Positions 59,800 to 63,767 of a stretch of DNA of 64,000 nucleotides are shown here, in pieces (position 1 is the stretch's first letter; each line of letters begins with the position of its first letter). The notes under the pieces are model-generated. The model saw nothing but the letters and a program-made list of their open reading frames with translations. It was not told where the DNA came from and did no database searches. Location of the stretch: assembly GCA_964515185.1 (NCBI GenBank), contig CAZESP010000005.1, positions 5,787 through 69,786 of the forward strand, in the 5' to 3' direction. The stretch comes from an uncultured Alcaligenaceae bacterium (GTDB taxonomy: Bacteria; Planctomycetota; Planctomycetia; Gemmatales; Gemmataceae). The translations under genes and the position numbers were made by a program.

Positions 59800-59982
59800 T
59801 GATGCCTCGCTTTCGTCGTGCCAACCGGTCCCCCAAGACCGACACCCGCACAATTGACGGGGTTCGGGCAAAGGATTTTACGCACCCAAGCAAGCAGAAG
59901 CAAAGCCCGCAGCGACTCAGCGAAGATTTTGCCACTATCATCTTCTTCAGATTCTCATCGAGCGTTACCAGGAGTCATTAAC

Positions 59983-60651
59983 GTGGCCCGAATTCGTCTG
60001 ACTGAGCGTGAAACGCGCCCGAATCGCCTGCCGATGGTCTGTGTCGTCTGCGGAGAACCCGCCGAATTCGCGCCTCATCGCAAATTCTCTTGGGCGCCTC
60101 CCTGGGTTCACATTCTCATCCTTGCTGGATTGTTGCCGTATGTCATCGTCGTTGCGATTCTGACCAAGCGGAAAAGCACCGACATGCCGGTCTGCCGGTG
60201 CCATCGCCACAACAACGCTTATCGGTTGCTGCTGGTTCTCGGATCGTTCTTCGTCATGACCGGGTTGGCCGTTGGAATTGGCTTTTTGATCGACTCGTTT
60301 CAGAAGCGGGACGAGTTGGGCGGATTGATTTGTCTCAGTATCGGCCTGATCATCTTGGCGTGGTTTCTACTGATTGTCATCGTCCAACTGATGTCGATTC
60401 GGCCCACCGAGATCACGGACTCCTCGATCACGCTGACAAACGTGAATATCGCGTTTGTCGATGCCGTTCGAGAGCAACGTGACCAGCGGCGCGTTGACAT
60501 CGACGACGACGAAGACGATGAATACGACGACCGGCGCCGGCGAAGGCGCTATGACGACGATGATGACGAATACGACGACGATGATCGCCCCCGACGCCGC
60601 CGGCCACGCTACGAAGACGAAGACGACCACGACGATCGACGCCGATCGTAG
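59983..60651 (+). CDS. membrane protein with N-terminal Cys pairs and hyper-charged D/E-R repeat C-terminal tail
   Basis: GTG start with GGAG upstream. 'CVVCGE...CRCHRH'. 3 TM helices. The tail 'DDDEDDEYDDRRRRRRYDDDDDEYDDDDRPRRRRPRYEDEDDHDDRRRS' contains a (D/E)n-Y-Dn-Rn motif repeated about 3 times. Confidence 0.5.
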   Translation: MARIRLTERETRPNRLPMVCVVCGEPAEFAPHRKFSWAPPWVHILILAGLLPYVIVVAILTKRKSTDMPVCRCHRHNNAYRLLLVLGSFFVMTGLAVGIGFLIDSFQKRDELGGLICLSIGLIILAWFLLIVIVQLMSIRPTEITDSSITLTNVNIAFVDAVREQRDQRRVDIDDDEDDEYDDRRRRRRYDDDDDEYDDDDRPRRRRPRYEDEDDHDDRRRS

Positions 60652-60660
60652 CCCATGCCT

Positions 60661-61170
60661 TCATGACGATAAGCCATGCGATCGTCGCGATAACTGCCAA
60701 ATCCGCGTCGCGATGCCGGGACATCGAACCGCCACAGTCAGCCGCCAAGGGCGACGGGACAATGCCAGCCGCAACGCCGGCCCTCGCCGCGGAATCAGAC
60801 CCGTTCGCGTCGACTTGTATTGAACGTCGATCCAAAGTGCGGCGGCGCGGGTCTCATCCGAAATCGCTTGCCGTGCCGCCAACCAGCGAACGAAGGCCCT
60901 CCCATCGGCAAGCGGCCCACCGAAACGCGGTATGGGGTGTTGCCGGGAATAGTCACTGAAACAGTCTCGGAATCGCTCGCCCAATTCTCGCCCCAGCATC
61001 GGCCAGGCTTGAGCCACTGTCCTGAGCCGTTTACGGAACAAGGCAACCGACGCCATTCGCAGTCGCTCGTTGTCGAAACCCGCGGGAGCGGCCGCGCCTG
61101 TCATGATCGCCTCGACCAGCGCTGCCTGTCGCGATGCTAAATCATGCCGAGGCTCAGTCGCCGATGACAT
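60661..61170 (-). CDS. DUF2063 domain protein (short; MNIO partner protein, BufC/HvfC-like)
   Basis: 'ERLRMASVALFRKRLRTVAQAWPMLGRELGERFRDCFSDYSRQHPIPRFGGPLADGRAFVRWL' fits the DUF2063 N-domain pattern (RL.vYRNN......AL...fP....L.G..F..l...Y....P..s..L...G..F..FL). It overlaps the upstream DUF692 stop. Confidence 0.65.
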   Translation of the reverse strand: MSSATEPRHDLASRQAALVEAIMTGAAAPAGFDNERLRMASVALFRKRLRTVAQAWPMLGRELGERFRDCFSDYSRQHPIPRFGGPLADGRAFVRWLAARQAISDETRAAALWIDVQYKSTRTGLIPRRGPALRLALSRRPWRLTVAVRCPGIATRIWQLSRRSHGLSS

Positions 61171-62011
61171 GGTGAACCTCGGGCCCGGTTTCAATTCGGC
61201 GTCGGTTGCCCCTCGCCATGGCTGCCGCGATGGCGTCTAACTCCGCGGCGACGGTCGAGTCCGGCGGAAAATTGGCGTCGCGTTCCAGCATCACGCCCGG
61301 AACGTTGACGCGACTGCAAAGGTATTCGAGCAACTCCAGGACCATCGCCGGAACGGCGTGTGCGTGCGTATCGTGATACGCTCCATCGCGCTCGACACCA
61401 CCGGCGACATGGACATAGGCGGTTCGTTCCAACGGAATTCGAGACAGAAACTCAATCGGGTCTTTGTTGAAGTTGCGAGCGTTGGCGTAGACGTTTTCGA
61501 TATCCAGCAAAAATTGGACGTTCGCTCGCTCCAGTATCTCCGTGAGGAACGTTGCCTCGTCCATCTCGTCGTCGGGCCATTCAAAGAGTGTCGCGATGTT
61601 CTCCAGCGCCAACGGAACGGGCAGCATCGACTGAAGCATTTTCGCATTCTTGACGATGAGGGTCACGGCCTCGCGTGTTCGCGGCATGGGGAGCAGGTGA
61701 CCCGTTTCGAATCCGCCGCCACGCACGAAGGCAATATGTTCGCTGACCAATGGTGCCTTGAGGTGGCGGGCAAGGCGAGCCAACGCTCTCATTTGTGTGT
61801 GATCGACAGGATCGGGTCCACCCAAAGAGAGTGAAACACCGTGAAGAACGGGTTGGACGCCGCGATGGATCAGTTGAGAAATCGGCGCGGGCAACGGCGT
61901 GTGAGGGTCGAGATCCTCGGCCATGAATTCAACAAACCCAAGGTCGCGGCGACGGTCAATAAAAAGGGCCAACTCCGGCCGCCATCCGATGCCGAGTCCA
62001 AGCGGGGTCAT
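61154..62011 (-). CDS. DUF692 family multinuclear non-heme iron oxidative enzyme (MNIO; MbnB/TglH/BufB family)
   Basis: 'MTPLGLGIGWRPELALFIDRRRDLGFVEFMAEDL...VQPVLHGVSLSLGG' matches the DUF692 N-terminal hallmark (LG.GLG.R.E.....DF.E..AEN......L....PV..HGVSLSLGS). It is a TIM-barrel-length protein of 286 aa. The start ATG overlaps the upstream stop (ATGA). Confidence 0.8.
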   Translation of the reverse strand: MTPLGLGIGWRPELALFIDRRRDLGFVEFMAEDLDPHTPLPAPISQLIHRGVQPVLHGVSLSLGGPDPVDHTQMRALARLARHLKAPLVSEHIAFVRGGGFETGHLLPMPRTREAVTLIVKNAKMLQSMLPVPLALENIATLFEWPDDEMDEATFLTEILERANVQFLLDIENVYANARNFNKDPIEFLSRIPLERTAYVHVAGGVERDGAYHDTHAHAVPAMVLELLEYLCSRVNVPGVMLERDANFPPDSTVAAELDAIAAAMARGNRRRIETGPEVHHVIGD

Positions 62012-62880
62012 CCGCCGCACCCCCCACAACCGCCGCCGCATCCTCCTCCGCAACTACTGCCGCAACTGCTGCCACCGCCGCAACTGCTCGACACAGTTGG
62101 CGGCGGTCGCATCATCGGCTGAAGCGGCGACAGCGGGCTACCCGCGAGAATGCCAACTCCGAAGAGCGCGAGAGCCATCGCCATGTCATCGCCCGAGACC
62201 TGATCGGCCAGTTTAAGTACCTGGGTCTTCATGGCGGCATTCGTGGTTTTGAGCCGTTCCAGTGTGCCGTCGCCGCGGCGGCTCCGAGTGACTTTTCGCC
62301 CGAATCCGACAAAGGCGATAATCACCGAAGCGATGCACAGTATCACGAGGAATCCCACGGGCTTGCCCCGTGATACTCCGACGAGGATTTTAATGACGCC
62401 CAACGCCGGCACGGCGAGGACGACCAGCAACGGCGCAATCGTCGCGATCGAGGCTTGACTGGGCGATACCAGCAACCCGAGGTCTTGGAGGCGTTCGCGG
62501 ATCGGGGTAAGTTCGGTTTTCGCGGCTCGCTGAACCGTGGCGAGCGATGATCCGGCACTAGGCTCAACCGCATCGAATACCTTTTTCTCTAGCGCGTGTG
62601 CGTCTGCCGGCAGGACATCGCTTTCCCGCACCAGCTTGTTTTCTTTGACACTCAGAATCTCGTCTTGGACCAGGTGAACGACGGCAGCGTTGACGGCAAG
62701 ATCCTCGCCGCCTTCGAGGTAGGCCGCCTCGTATGCCGACAACGGCGCCGTGTCGGGGAATAACTCATCAATGGGCTGTCTTAGATACGATCGCCAGGCG
62801 ATCGCCACAACGACCGCGCTCACGATCAGCATGATGTAAAAGGCGAGGAATTGCGGCCCGGTGAGATTGAGAGGATTCAT
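62008..62880 (-). CDS. 4-TM membrane protein with C-terminal Cys/Gly low-complexity tail (candidate MNIO substrate)
   Basis: TM helices 'FLAFYIMLIVSAVVVAIAW', 'IATIAPLLVVLAVPALGVIKILVGV', 'GFLVILCIASVIIAFVGF' and 'MAMALALFGVGILAG'. The C-terminus is 'PPPTVSSSCGGGSSCGSSCGGGCGGGCGGCGG*'. The stop overlaps the MNIO start. Confidence 0.65.
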   Translation of the reverse strand: MNPLNLTGPQFLAFYIMLIVSAVVVAIAWRSYLRQPIDELFPDTAPLSAYEAAYLEGGEDLAVNAAVVHLVQDEILSVKENKLVRESDVLPADAHALEKKVFDAVEPSAGSSLATVQRAAKTELTPIRERLQDLGLLVSPSQASIATIAPLLVVLAVPALGVIKILVGVSRGKPVGFLVILCIASVIIAFVGFGRKVTRSRRGDGTLERLKTTNAAMKTQVLKLADQVSGDDMAMALALFGVGILAGSPLSPLQPMMRPPPTVSSSCGGGSSCGSSCGGGCGGGCGGCGG

Positions 62881-63629
62881 GGTCGCGCCTCCCCCATGGC
62901 GTGAACCGCGCCGGCGACTTTGGCGATCGCATCGAGGGTCTCGCGGAATAGTTCCACCATGTCGCCGGCCGGTCGCGGATTCTGACGGAGGACCGCGAGC
63001 CGGGCCAACGGTTCGGGCTTCAATCCAAAGGCCGCTGATGCCGATTCAAAAATCGCCGCGGTCCGATCTTCGGCAGGCGATGGTTTCCCGGCAAAGCTGA
63101 GCAACGCCGCCAACTCCAGCGCGAACGGTCTTGCGAATTTCGACAAGATGCGTGCCATACCCACCGAGTCGCGGCCCGACAAAATCAACGCATGCCTTAG
63201 CCTCAAGAGATGATTGCGAAGTTCCTGTTCAATTCGCAATCGGATCATCTCGCGCGGCACCACAAGTTGAGAAAGATCGTTCTCACCGGCCAGGACGATG
63301 TGGTGGTTTTTGATGTCGAGGAATTTGATCGGAAACGCTCGTGCCGCGTCGGGGAGTTCGGCGGGCGTGAGGATCAATGGCTCCACGGCGACGGCTCGCC
63401 ACGCGGTGCGCAACGCCGGCGCGATGGTTGCCAGGGAGTTTGCCGATGCGTCGCGGAGCAGGACAAGGACGTTGACATCGCTCTTGCCCGGGCGATAGCG
63501 ACCCCGGGCCACGCCGCCATAGAGGATTAGCCCGGCGAAGTTGTCGCCGGCGGCATTTGTCAGATCGGCCTTCAAGCGTTCGAGGGCAGACACGACGTTC
63601 GCAGGCACGCCAGAAATGGTTATGGGCAT
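62877..63629 (-). CDS. nucleotidyltransferase (Pol-beta superfamily) domain protein
   Basis: 'LILYGGVARGRYRPGKSDVNVLVLLRD' is a GS/GG...D.D NTase motif. The stop overlaps the start of the Cys/Gly-tail membrane protein (ATGA). Start is at the internal ATG 'MPITISG'. Confidence 0.6.
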   Translation of the reverse strand: MPITISGVPANVVSALERLKADLTNAAGDNFAGLILYGGVARGRYRPGKSDVNVLVLLRDASANSLATIAPALRTAWRAVAVEPLILTPAELPDAARAFPIKFLDIKNHHIVLAGENDLSQLVVPREMIRLRIEQELRNHLLRLRHALILSGRDSVGMARILSKFARPFALELAALLSFAGKPSPAEDRTAAIFESASAAFGLKPEPLARLAVLRQNPRPAGDMVELFRETLDAIAKVAGAVHAMGEARP

Positions 63630-63767
63630 CGGAGGCTCGCTTCCAAACGGGGAACCGAATCGGTCACGACAGTGTCGCATTCGCCGGCGATTGTCGAGGA
63701 TCACCGGGCAATTGTCAATGATGCCGGCGTCGCGTGGCATCATTTCCCGGCCGAGCGACCGGACGAT

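What the first reader, a model, noticed from the sequence alone, without database searches (positions are those of the whole stretch)
62008..62110. Cys/Gly low-complexity C-terminus as a built-in core peptide
The last 27 residues of the 62008-62880 protein are SSSCGGGSSCGSSCGGGCGGGCGGCGG. Its TGA stop shares bases with the ATG of the MNIO gene. The antisense strand of the same DNA gives a Pro-rich shadow ORF (61841-62122), so simple GC-rich repeats could mislead annotation here. A plausible reading is a membrane-tethered substrate or metal-binding tail, by analogy with bufferins and methanobactin, which bind copper.
Basis: partly seen in the sequence, partly recalled or inferred. Interest (0 to 1): 0.8.

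Follow-up and report, generated by a model that had tools for sequence, protein, structure and literature searches.

The report
Cysteine-glycine tail of TIGR04222 membrane protein
The Cys/Gly-rich end of this membrane protein is real and strongly conserved, and it sits in a small operon with an iron-dependent peptide-modifying enzyme, but this protein family and the idea that its tail is the enzyme's built-in substrate were published in 2025, so this is an untested member of a known kind.

Summary
ORF 62008..62880 (-) encodes a 290-aa protein ending SSSCGGGSSCGSSCGGGCGGGCGGCGG. Its TGA overlaps the MNIO gene's ATG (ATGA), and the antisense Pro-rich ORF is a shadow.

The protein belongs to NCBIfam TIGR04222 (168 bits, cut-off 43). 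The tail is not an artefact. Two independent assemblies encode the identical protein. A tail-less query still recovers homologues of which 137/150 end in a CGGC-containing Cys/Gly tail, with modal pattern C-x3-C-x4-C-x2-C-GG.

The gene lies in a translationally coupled four-gene operon: a nucleotidyltransferase-like gene, TIGR04222, the MNIO, and a 169-aa partner. The partner's predicted fold best matches the MNIO partners NGO1945, TglI and MbnC.

It is plausible here: no other Cys-rich ORF in the operon, intact MNIO motifs, every tail Cys followed by Gly. It is weakened because 37 of 64 evaluable tail-bearing loci have no adjacent MNIO, so the tail must also work without one nearby.

Topology is unresolved. 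The soluble domain is probably cytoplasmic, and the tail is periplasmic only if a weak fourth hydrophobic segment spans the membrane.

Verdict: new member of a known kind, moderate-low interest.

The parts
62008..62091 (-). C-terminal Cys/Gly/Ser tail (residues 264-290, SSSCGGGSSCGSSCGGGCGGGCGGCGG) plus the TGA stop. It is the candidate in-cis substrate or metal-binding segment.
   Evidence: sequence. (conservation and Cys spacing). (AF2 pLDDT <50 for residues 271-290, so disordered). (varied synonymous codons).
62008..62880 (-). TIGR04222-family membrane protein, 290 aa. It has three strong hydrophobic helices (about residues 10-29, 146-167 and 175-194), a soluble domain (about 30-145), a basic loop RKVTRSRRGD, a weak fourth hydrophobic segment (232-249), a Pro-rich linker and the Cys/Gly tail.
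   Evidence: TIGR04222.1, E 2.8e-49, 167.8 bits, cut-off 43. (hydropathy and charge counts). (AF2 mean pLDDT 89.9).
61154..62011 (-). MNIO (DUF692) enzyme, 285 aa. Its ATG overlaps the stop codon of the tail gene.
   Evidence: PF05114, E 1.3e-76. (best matches BufB and HvfB, both below their equivalog cut-offs). (closest solved structure 3bww). (His/Glu/Asp/Asn motifs conserved in 27-28 of 28 TIGR04222-adjacent MNIOs).
60661..61170 (-). MNIO partner protein, 169 aa, of the PME-type 2 kind (DUF2063-like helical domain plus a small beta-sheet domain). It overlaps the MNIO gene by 17 nt.
62877..63629 (-). Nucleotidyltransferase-like protein, 250 aa, the first gene of the operon. Its TGA overlaps the ATG of the TIGR04222 gene.
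   Evidence: weak NTP_transf_2 match. (PADLOC PDC-S09, E 6.6e-9, over the N-terminal nucleotidyltransferase motif). (present upstream in about half of the MNIO-adjacent loci). (120 homologues at 49-65% identity with conserved GGxARG...SDxN).
63690..63718 (-). Promoter-like site TTGACA-17-GACAAT upstream of the operon. This is a consensus match only.
61841..62122 (+). Antisense Pro-rich shadow ORF, 93 aa, GTG start. It is not considered a gene.
   Evidence: It lies opposite two genes with strong family matches.

Best explanation
The feature is the conserved C-terminal Cys/Gly/Ser tail of a TIGR04222-family integral membrane protein. The gene is the second of four translationally coupled genes: a nucleotidyltransferase-like gene, TIGR04222, an MNIO and a PME-type 2 partner.

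The most likely mechanism is as follows. The cytoplasmic MNIO-partner complex recognises the membrane protein, probably through its cytoplasmic soluble domain, which would act as a built-in leader. The complex then oxidises several tail cysteines, all of which sit in G/S-C-G contexts. The most probable product is 5-thiooxazole, the product of the closest characterised MNIOs (BufB and HvfB types). The result would be a membrane-tethered soft-metal (copper) binding module that is not cleaved off.

Shown here: family membership, operon architecture, tail conservation and Cys spacing, intact MNIO motifs, and the partner fold.
Inferred: that the tail is the substrate, the chemistry, the metal, and the final side of the membrane.
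For: - TIGR04222 membership: 167.8 bits against a cut-off of 43.
- Gene overlaps of 4, 4 and 17 nt.
- The MNIO matches PF05114 at E 1.3e-76. Its nearest equivalog models are the Cys-modifying BufB and HvfB. Its catalytic and metal motifs are conserved in 27-28 of 28 TIGR04222-adjacent MNIOs.
- The partner's fold best matches NGO1945, TglI and MbnC.
- There is no other Cys-rich small ORF in the operon.
- In 27 loci from several phyla an MNIO lies downstream of the tail gene, within about 40 nt in most.
- Tails in MNIO-adjacent loci are richer in Cys (median 6 vs 4, p=0.05) and Ser (9 vs 5, p=1e-4).
- The tail is predicted to be disordered.
- All 6 window Cys are followed by Gly. 72% of family tail Cys sit in a GCG context. 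The thiooxazole-forming MNIO FonB prefers a Cys-Gly dyad (PMC12668002).
- The same hypothesis is stated for the family in PMC12452194.
Against: - No experiment on any TIGR04222 protein was found.
- 37 of 64 evaluable loci with the same tail have no MNIO in the sequence available on either side (at least 1.5 kb, up to 5 kb). Many of these have a different conserved neighbour instead. The published survey found that a third of genomes with TIGR04222 have no MNIO at all. The tail therefore has a function that does not need an adjacent MNIO.
- The MNIO scores below the cut-offs of every characterised equivalog, so its chemistry cannot be read off.
- The MNIO is cytoplasmic. The tail may end up in the periplasm (PMC12452194). 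My own topology analysis leaves this open.
Confidence: 0.55

Rival explanations
1. The tail works unmodified. It would be a family-wide Cys-thiolate motif (C-x3-C-x3/4-C-x2-C) that binds metal or undergoes redox or disulfide chemistry on its own, like a tethered metallothionein. The MNIO and partner would act on something else, or the membrane protein would serve them as a dock or scaffold rather than as a substrate.
For: - The same terminal motif is conserved in 37 of 64 evaluable loci that lack an adjacent MNIO.
- It is also conserved in roughly 480-aa fusion variants that carry a different N-terminal domain.
- 137 of 150 homologues found without using the tail carry it.
- A third of genomes with TIGR04222 lack any MNIO (PMC12452194).
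Against: - This operon offers the MNIO-partner pair no other Cys-containing candidate substrate.
- The coupling is tight (ATGA overlap), and the adjacency recurs across phyla.
- Tails next to an MNIO are richer in Cys and Ser.
- Partner proteins of this fold are dedicated substrate-binding subunits in the characterised systems (established knowledge of MbnBC and TglHI).
Confidence: 0.3
2. This is a classical RiPP with a giant leader. The tail would be modified and then cut off and released as a free Cys-derived metallophore, in the manner of methanobactin.
For: - The MNIO and partner resemble RiPP machinery.
- A conserved Pro-rich linker (consensus LxPPP) precedes the tail.
- A MacB-type ABC transporter lies a few genes upstream on the source contig.
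Against: - The operon has no protease.
- The transporter is not among the conserved neighbours in related loci.
- The membrane body is highly conserved and well folded, which fits a functional protein better than a disposable leader.
Confidence: 0.07
3. The feature is an artefact. It would be a low-complexity GC-rich repeat read in the wrong frame, a sequencing error, or a mis-annotated overlap with the antisense Pro-rich ORF.
For: GC-rich low-complexity DNA does give long ORFs in several frames, such as the 93-aa antisense ORF and the 299-aa TTG-start version of the MNIO ORF.
Against: - Two independent assemblies encode the identical protein.
- The tail is conserved in frame in hundreds of homologues at 33-55% identity.
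- Synonymous codons vary. The peptide GCGGCG is encoded by 66 distinct 18-mers in 78 loci.
- Tandem Repeats Finder reports only a weak 12-nt repeat.
Confidence: 0.01

Closest known systems
TIGR04222-MNIO-PME-type 2 gene clusters (Microb Genom 2025, PMC12452194)
   Same: - The family signature matches.
- The protein is multi-pass and carries an unstructured C-terminal Ser/Gly tail studded with Cys.
- The gene directly precedes an MNIO whose sequence is close to the bufferin-type enzymes.
- The partner lacks the DUF2063 signature but has the NGO1945/TglI-like fold.
- The paper even models a planctomycete example (Pirellula staleyi).
   Different: - The operon starts with a conserved nucleotidyltransferase-like gene. 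A text search of the paper for 'nucleotidyl' finds nothing.
- My charge counts and the fusion-variant analysis place the soluble domain in the cytoplasm. The paper describes large periplasmic domains.
Bufferins, oxazolin and fontiphorin ('captophorins'): MNIO-PME1 products carrying 5-thiooxazoles (PMC12668002)
   Same: - The nearest MNIO subfamilies are BufB and HvfB.
- The candidate substrate is Cys-rich with small residues after each Cys (Cys-Gly dyad).
- A copper-related role is plausible.
   Different: - The candidate substrate is a 290-aa integral membrane protein with no Sec signal peptide and no DUF2282, Buf_6/12_Cys or EGKCG signature.
- The partner is a short PME-type 2 protein, not a DUF2063-RRE PME1.
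- The MNIO scores below the BufB and HvfB equivalog cut-offs.
Methanobactin (MbnA/MbnB/MbnC)
   Different: - The MNIO is only distantly related to MbnB (E 3e-8).
- There is no short MbnA-type precursor.
- No MbnC family signature was found for the partner in Pfam or NCBIfam, and the operon's four genes include no transporter.
- The product would stay tethered to the membrane.
DUF2207 (YciQ-like) C-terminal membrane domain, PF20990
   Same: A close homologue (P0008) matches DUF2207_C at E 3.8e-7, just under the cut-off. This suggests a shared membrane module. From my own knowledge, DUF2207 proteins often end in Gly-rich tails.
   Different: The window protein itself gives no Pfam hit. DUF2207 proteins have a large N-terminal extracytoplasmic domain and are not known to be linked to MNIOs.

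Membership tests
TIGR04222 domain-containing membrane protein (NCBIfam) | HMM score above the curated cut-off over the full model | tested here: met
   167.8 bits against a cut-off of 43. Model positions 1-229 of 229 align to residues 14-246.
TIGR04222 domain-containing membrane protein (NCBIfam) | Several transmembrane segments followed by an unstructured C-terminal Ser/Gly region interspersed with Cys (description in PMC12452194) | tested here: met
   three strong hydrophobic segments and one weak one; tail pLDDT below 50; 6 Cys, 14 Gly and 7 Ser in the last 27 residues.
MNIO (PF05114 MbnB_TglH_ChrH), for the adjacent enzyme | Pfam score above the gathering threshold, and conserved metal-binding and catalytic motifs | tested here: met
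   257.8 bits against a threshold of 25; the HG, SEH, EN, LLD..N, H.AGG, D.H and ERD motifs are present, and their key residues are conserved in 27-28 of 28 TIGR04222-adjacent homologues.
BufB / HvfB / ApyH / ChrH MNIO equivalogs | NCBIfam equivalog score above the curated cut-off | tested here: not met
   BufB 183.7 against 310, HvfB 173.5 against 360, ApyH 117.8 against 400, ChrH 67.1 against 600.
PME-type 2 MNIO partner (PMC12452194) | Encoded directly after the MNIO, no DUF2063 Pfam signature, but structurally related to NGO1945 (3dee) and TglI (8hi7) | tested here: met
Bufferin / captophorin precursors (Buf1 DUF2282, Buf2, EGKCG) | A small secreted precursor with a Sec signal peptide and a DUF2282, Buf_6/12_Cys or EGKCG-repeat signature | tested here: not met
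   no such family hit. The protein is a 290-aa multi-pass protein. Its tail Cys contexts are G/S-C-G, not KCG.
Methanobactin system | A short MbnA precursor plus MbnB- and MbnC-type proteins | tested here: not met
   no short Cys-rich ORF in the operon. MbnB similarity only E 3e-8. No MbnC family hit.
RiPP in the strict sense | Post-translational modification of a core segment, shown chemically, usually with proteolytic release | not testable with these tools
   This needs mass spectrometry of the tail after co-expression. No protease gene is in the operon.

The most novel reading that the evidence does not exclude
The tail-bearing TIGR04222 module could be a general membrane display platform for a Cys/Gly tail that different cytoplasmic partner systems service in different lineages. 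The partner would be MNIO plus PME-type 2 plus a nucleotidyltransferase-like protein here, and an unrelated HLHLTYSxxYW-motif domain, separate or fused, elsewhere.

In this operon the MNIO would modify a full-length integral membrane protein in cis. Its own cytoplasmic domain would serve as the recognition element, and the modification would happen before the short C-terminal segment is flipped across the membrane. That would be protein-level, non-cleaved RiPP-like chemistry on a membrane protein. It would also place the soluble domain on the opposite side of the membrane from the published description.
Probability: 0.2. Interest if true: 0.6.

Novelty: new member of a known kind. Interest (0 to 1): 0.35.

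Why it matters
If the tail is modified by the MNIO, this would extend RiPP-type Cys chemistry from small secreted peptides to a permanently membrane-anchored protein. It would also point to a widespread metal-handling device in Planctomycetota, Myxococcota, Acidobacteriota, Cyanobacteria and Actinomycetota. The family and the hypothesis are already in the literature, so this window adds one typical example.

The added value here is fourfold:
- An unbiased demonstration that the terminal Cys motif is near-universal in the subfamily.
- The finding that most evaluable tail-bearing loci lack an adjacent MNIO.
- A conserved nucleotidyltransferase-like operon member.
- A topology argument that differs from the published one.

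Tried and rejected
- **Profile search of the partner alignment against PDB sequences.** Nothing was found. Only the fold comparison linked the partner to known MNIO partners.
- **Pfam and NCBIfam scans of the partner and of the alternative upstream protein in MNIO-less loci.** No hits. The precomputed families PF26136 and PF27765 gave no match in the local Pfam copy, which appears to lack both.
- **PDB sequence search with the nucleotidyltransferase-like protein.** Only a chance-level hit (E 0.53).
- **Search for an alternative small Cys-rich precursor ORF in the operon.** None found.
- **The 299-aa TTG-start version of the MNIO ORF.** Rejected. Its N-terminal extension, MRRRMRRRLWGVRR, is the tail DNA read in another frame, and homologues align from the ATG at 62011.
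- **A strict split of tail types between MNIO-adjacent and MNIO-less loci.** Rejected. Endings in ...CGGCG[GS] and in ...GGGD occur in both groups. Only quantitative differences in Cys, Ser and acidic content hold.
- **Not possible.** I could not run a dedicated topology predictor or read model coordinates.

Full report
**1. Observation**

The minus-strand ORF 62008..62880 encodes a 290-aa protein ending ...MMRPPPTVSSSCGGGSSCGSSCGGGCGGGCGGCGG. The stop TGA (62010..62008) and the next gene's ATG (62011..62009) form an ATGA overlap. The upstream gene's stop overlaps this gene's ATG in the same way (62880..62877). The gene after the MNIO overlaps the MNIO by 17 nt.

The antisense 93-aa Pro-rich ORF (61841..62122, +) exists. 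It lies opposite two genes with strong family matches, so I treat it as a shadow ORF.

The tail holds 6 of the protein's 7 cysteines. Its DNA is not a simple repeat. Tandem Repeats Finder reports only a 12-nt unit x 2.2 copies, and the tail uses all four Gly codons, both Cys codons and three Ser codons. The identical protein is encoded on a JGI metagenome contig and in an independent Logan assembly. A frame or sequencing artefact is therefore excluded.

**2. What it is**

The protein matches NCBIfam TIGR04222, 'TIGR04222 domain-containing membrane protein', at 167.8 bits against a cut-off of 43, over the whole model.

The next gene is an MNIO (PF05114, E 1.3e-76). Its best NCBIfam matches are the bufferin maturase BufB and HvfB, but all scores fall below the equivalog cut-offs. 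Its closest solved structure is 3bww. The His/Glu/Asp/Asn motifs are present, and their key residues are conserved in 27-28 of 28 MNIOs that sit next to TIGR04222 genes.

The first gene (62877..63629, 250 aa) is nucleotidyltransferase-like. A promoter-like site lies upstream of it, and a convergent gene follows the partner. The unit is a four-gene operon.

**3. Is the tail conserved?**

The first homologue search returned 120 proteins at 34-54% identity, and all had Cys/Gly-rich C-termini, nearly all ending ...CGGGCGGG(G)CGGCG[GS]. That search pre-selects candidates by shared words, so it could favour the tail.

I therefore searched residues 1-263 only, with no tail, against 1.84 billion representative proteins with full HMMER. 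Of the best 150 hits, 137 have CGGC within the last 25 residues, and 141 have at least 2 Cys in the last 30. Most exceptions look truncated or frame-shifted.

Over 234 tail-bearing homologues, the commonest count is 6 Cys and the commonest terminal pattern is C-x3-C-x4-C-x2-C-GG. Spacings of 2-4 residues dominate, and 72% of Cys sit in a GCG context. The Ser-rich part upstream varies in length.

In 78 genomic loci the peptide GCGGCG is written with 66 different 18-mers. Those loci were picked by a degenerate pattern for that peptide, so only the synonymous diversity is informative. Selection acts on the peptide, not on the DNA.

**4. Genomic context elsewhere**

A genome scan returned 80 loci with tail-bearing relatives. 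I compared the four window proteins against them.

- 27 loci have an MNIO downstream, within about 40 nt of the stop in most. They come from Planctomycetota, Myxococcota, Acidobacteriota, Cyanobacteria, Verrucomicrobiota and Proteobacteria.
- 10 of these also have a recognisable homologue of the partner.
- About half have the nucleotidyltransferase-like gene upstream.
- 37 loci have at least 1.5 kb of flank on both sides and no MNIO.

Many of the MNIO-less loci instead have a different conserved upstream gene. It is about 184 aa, carries the motif HLHLTYSxxYW and ends in a transmembrane helix. In the roughly 480-aa variants the same domain is fused to the N-terminus.

Tails next to an MNIO have more Cys (median 6 vs 4, p=0.05), more Ser (9 vs 5, p=1e-4) and fewer acidic residues. 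The tail is thus a property of the membrane-protein family. The MNIO is one of at least two alternative companions.

**5. Topology**

Hydropathy gives three strong helices (10-29, 146-167, 175-194) and a weak, Gly-rich fourth segment (232-249, Kyte-Doolittle 19-residue mean 1.75). Across 35 homologues, the loop after helix 3 carries on average 5.1 Lys+Arg against 1.2 Asp+Glu. The N-terminus is slightly acidic.

In the fusion variants, an N-terminal soluble domain without a signal peptide is followed by an extra transmembrane helix and then by the TIGR04222 module. Both lines of evidence put the module's N-terminus outside, and the soluble domain (30-145) and the basic loop in the cytoplasm. 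This differs from the 'large periplasmic domain(s)' description in PMC12452194.

The tail is periplasmic only if segment 4 truly spans the membrane. AlphaFold2 (mean pLDDT 89.9) breaks that segment into short helices (230-240, 242-245, 251-257) and leaves residues 271-290 disordered. I could not run a dedicated topology predictor or inspect coordinates, so the location of the tail remains open.

**6. Mechanism**

The best-supported reading is that the MNIO-partner complex modifies tail cysteines of the membrane protein in cis, and that the product stays tethered. Several observations support it:

- Translational coupling and recurrent adjacency.
- No other Cys-rich ORF in the operon.
- An apparently competent enzyme.
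- A dedicated partner fold.
- A disordered, accessible tail.
- Every tail Cys followed by Gly. The related thiooxazole-forming enzyme FonB prefers a Cys-Gly dyad and rejects charged residues after Cys (PMC12668002).

That paper also reassigns the products of the large MNIO-PME1 group to 5-thiooxazoles with a copper-detoxification role. Thiooxazole is therefore my best guess for the chemistry and copper for the metal. Both are inferences.

The main rival is that the tail acts as an unmodified thiolate motif. It is supported by the many MNIO-less loci and by the published figure that a third of genomes with TIGR04222 have no MNIO.

**7. Comparison with the literature and novelty**

PMC12452194 (Microb Genom 2025) collected more than 3,500 TIGR04222 proteins. 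It described the Ser/Gly/Cys tails and noted the link with bufferin-like MNIOs and PME-type 2 partners. It proposed that the C-terminal segment is modified by the MNIO, and it cautioned that the association is loose. One of its two modelled examples is a planctomycete protein.

I found no experimental work on any member.

Points that appear to go beyond the paper are:
- The tail-independent search showing near-universality of the terminal motif in this subfamily.
- The count of MNIO-less tail-bearing loci and their alternative neighbour.
- The conserved nucleotidyltransferase-like operon gene.
- The topology argument.

**8. Verdict**

The locus is a new member of a known kind. Interest is 0.35.

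Noticed in passing
window 62877..63629 (-): The first operon gene is a 250-aa nucleotidyltransferase-like protein. It is more conserved than the membrane protein (120 homologues at 49-65% identity and of uniform length). Its invariant motif is GGxARG...SDxN, so a conserved Asn replaces the second catalytic carboxylate of the Pol-beta-type DxD/E motif. It occurs upstream of TIGR04222 in about half of the MNIO-adjacent loci and in only one MNIO-less locus. A text search of the 2025 MNIO landscape paper for 'nucleotidyl' finds nothing.
   Followed up: partly
loci L034, L036, L037, L047, L048, L051, L057, L058, L060, L063, L068, L074, L076-L078 (upstream of the match); proteins P0027, P0031, P0050, P0082, P0143 (residues 1-200): Tail-bearing TIGR04222 genes without an MNIO often follow a gene of about 184 aa with the motif HLHLTYSxxYW...LHH and a C-terminal transmembrane helix. 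In variants of about 480 aa the same domain is fused to the N-terminus of TIGR04222 (precomputed PF27765). It has no hit in the local Pfam or NCBIfam copies. It may be an alternative partner for the same Cys/Gly tail.
   Followed up: partly
window 62008..62880 (-); proteins P0027, P0031 and others: The charge distribution and the fusion architecture (soluble domain, extra transmembrane helix, then the TIGR04222 module) imply that the module's N-terminus is outside and its soluble domain (residues 30-145) is cytoplasmic. This differs from the published description of large periplasmic domains.
   Followed up: partly
protein P0008 (homologue of window 62008..62880): A close homologue matches Pfam DUF2207_C (PF20990) at E 3.8e-7, just below the cut-off. 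This hints that TIGR04222 is related to the C-terminal membrane module of DUF2207/YciQ-like proteins.
   Followed up: no
window 59818..60651 (+): The convergent neighbouring ORF encodes a predicted membrane protein. Its C-terminus is an extreme alternating Arg/Asp low-complexity run (...DDDEDDEYDDRRRRRRYDDDDDEYDDDDRPRRRRPRYEDEDDHDDRRRS). The source contig calls a 222-aa product there with no Pfam hit.
   Followed up: no
window 61154..62053 (-): The mechanical ORF list and one public gene call (Logan, 295 aa) extend the MNIO upstream into the tail DNA read in another frame (MRRRMRRRLWGVRR...). Homologues support the ATG at 62011 (285 aa). This is a likely recurrent start-site mis-annotation in such loci.
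   Followed up: yes
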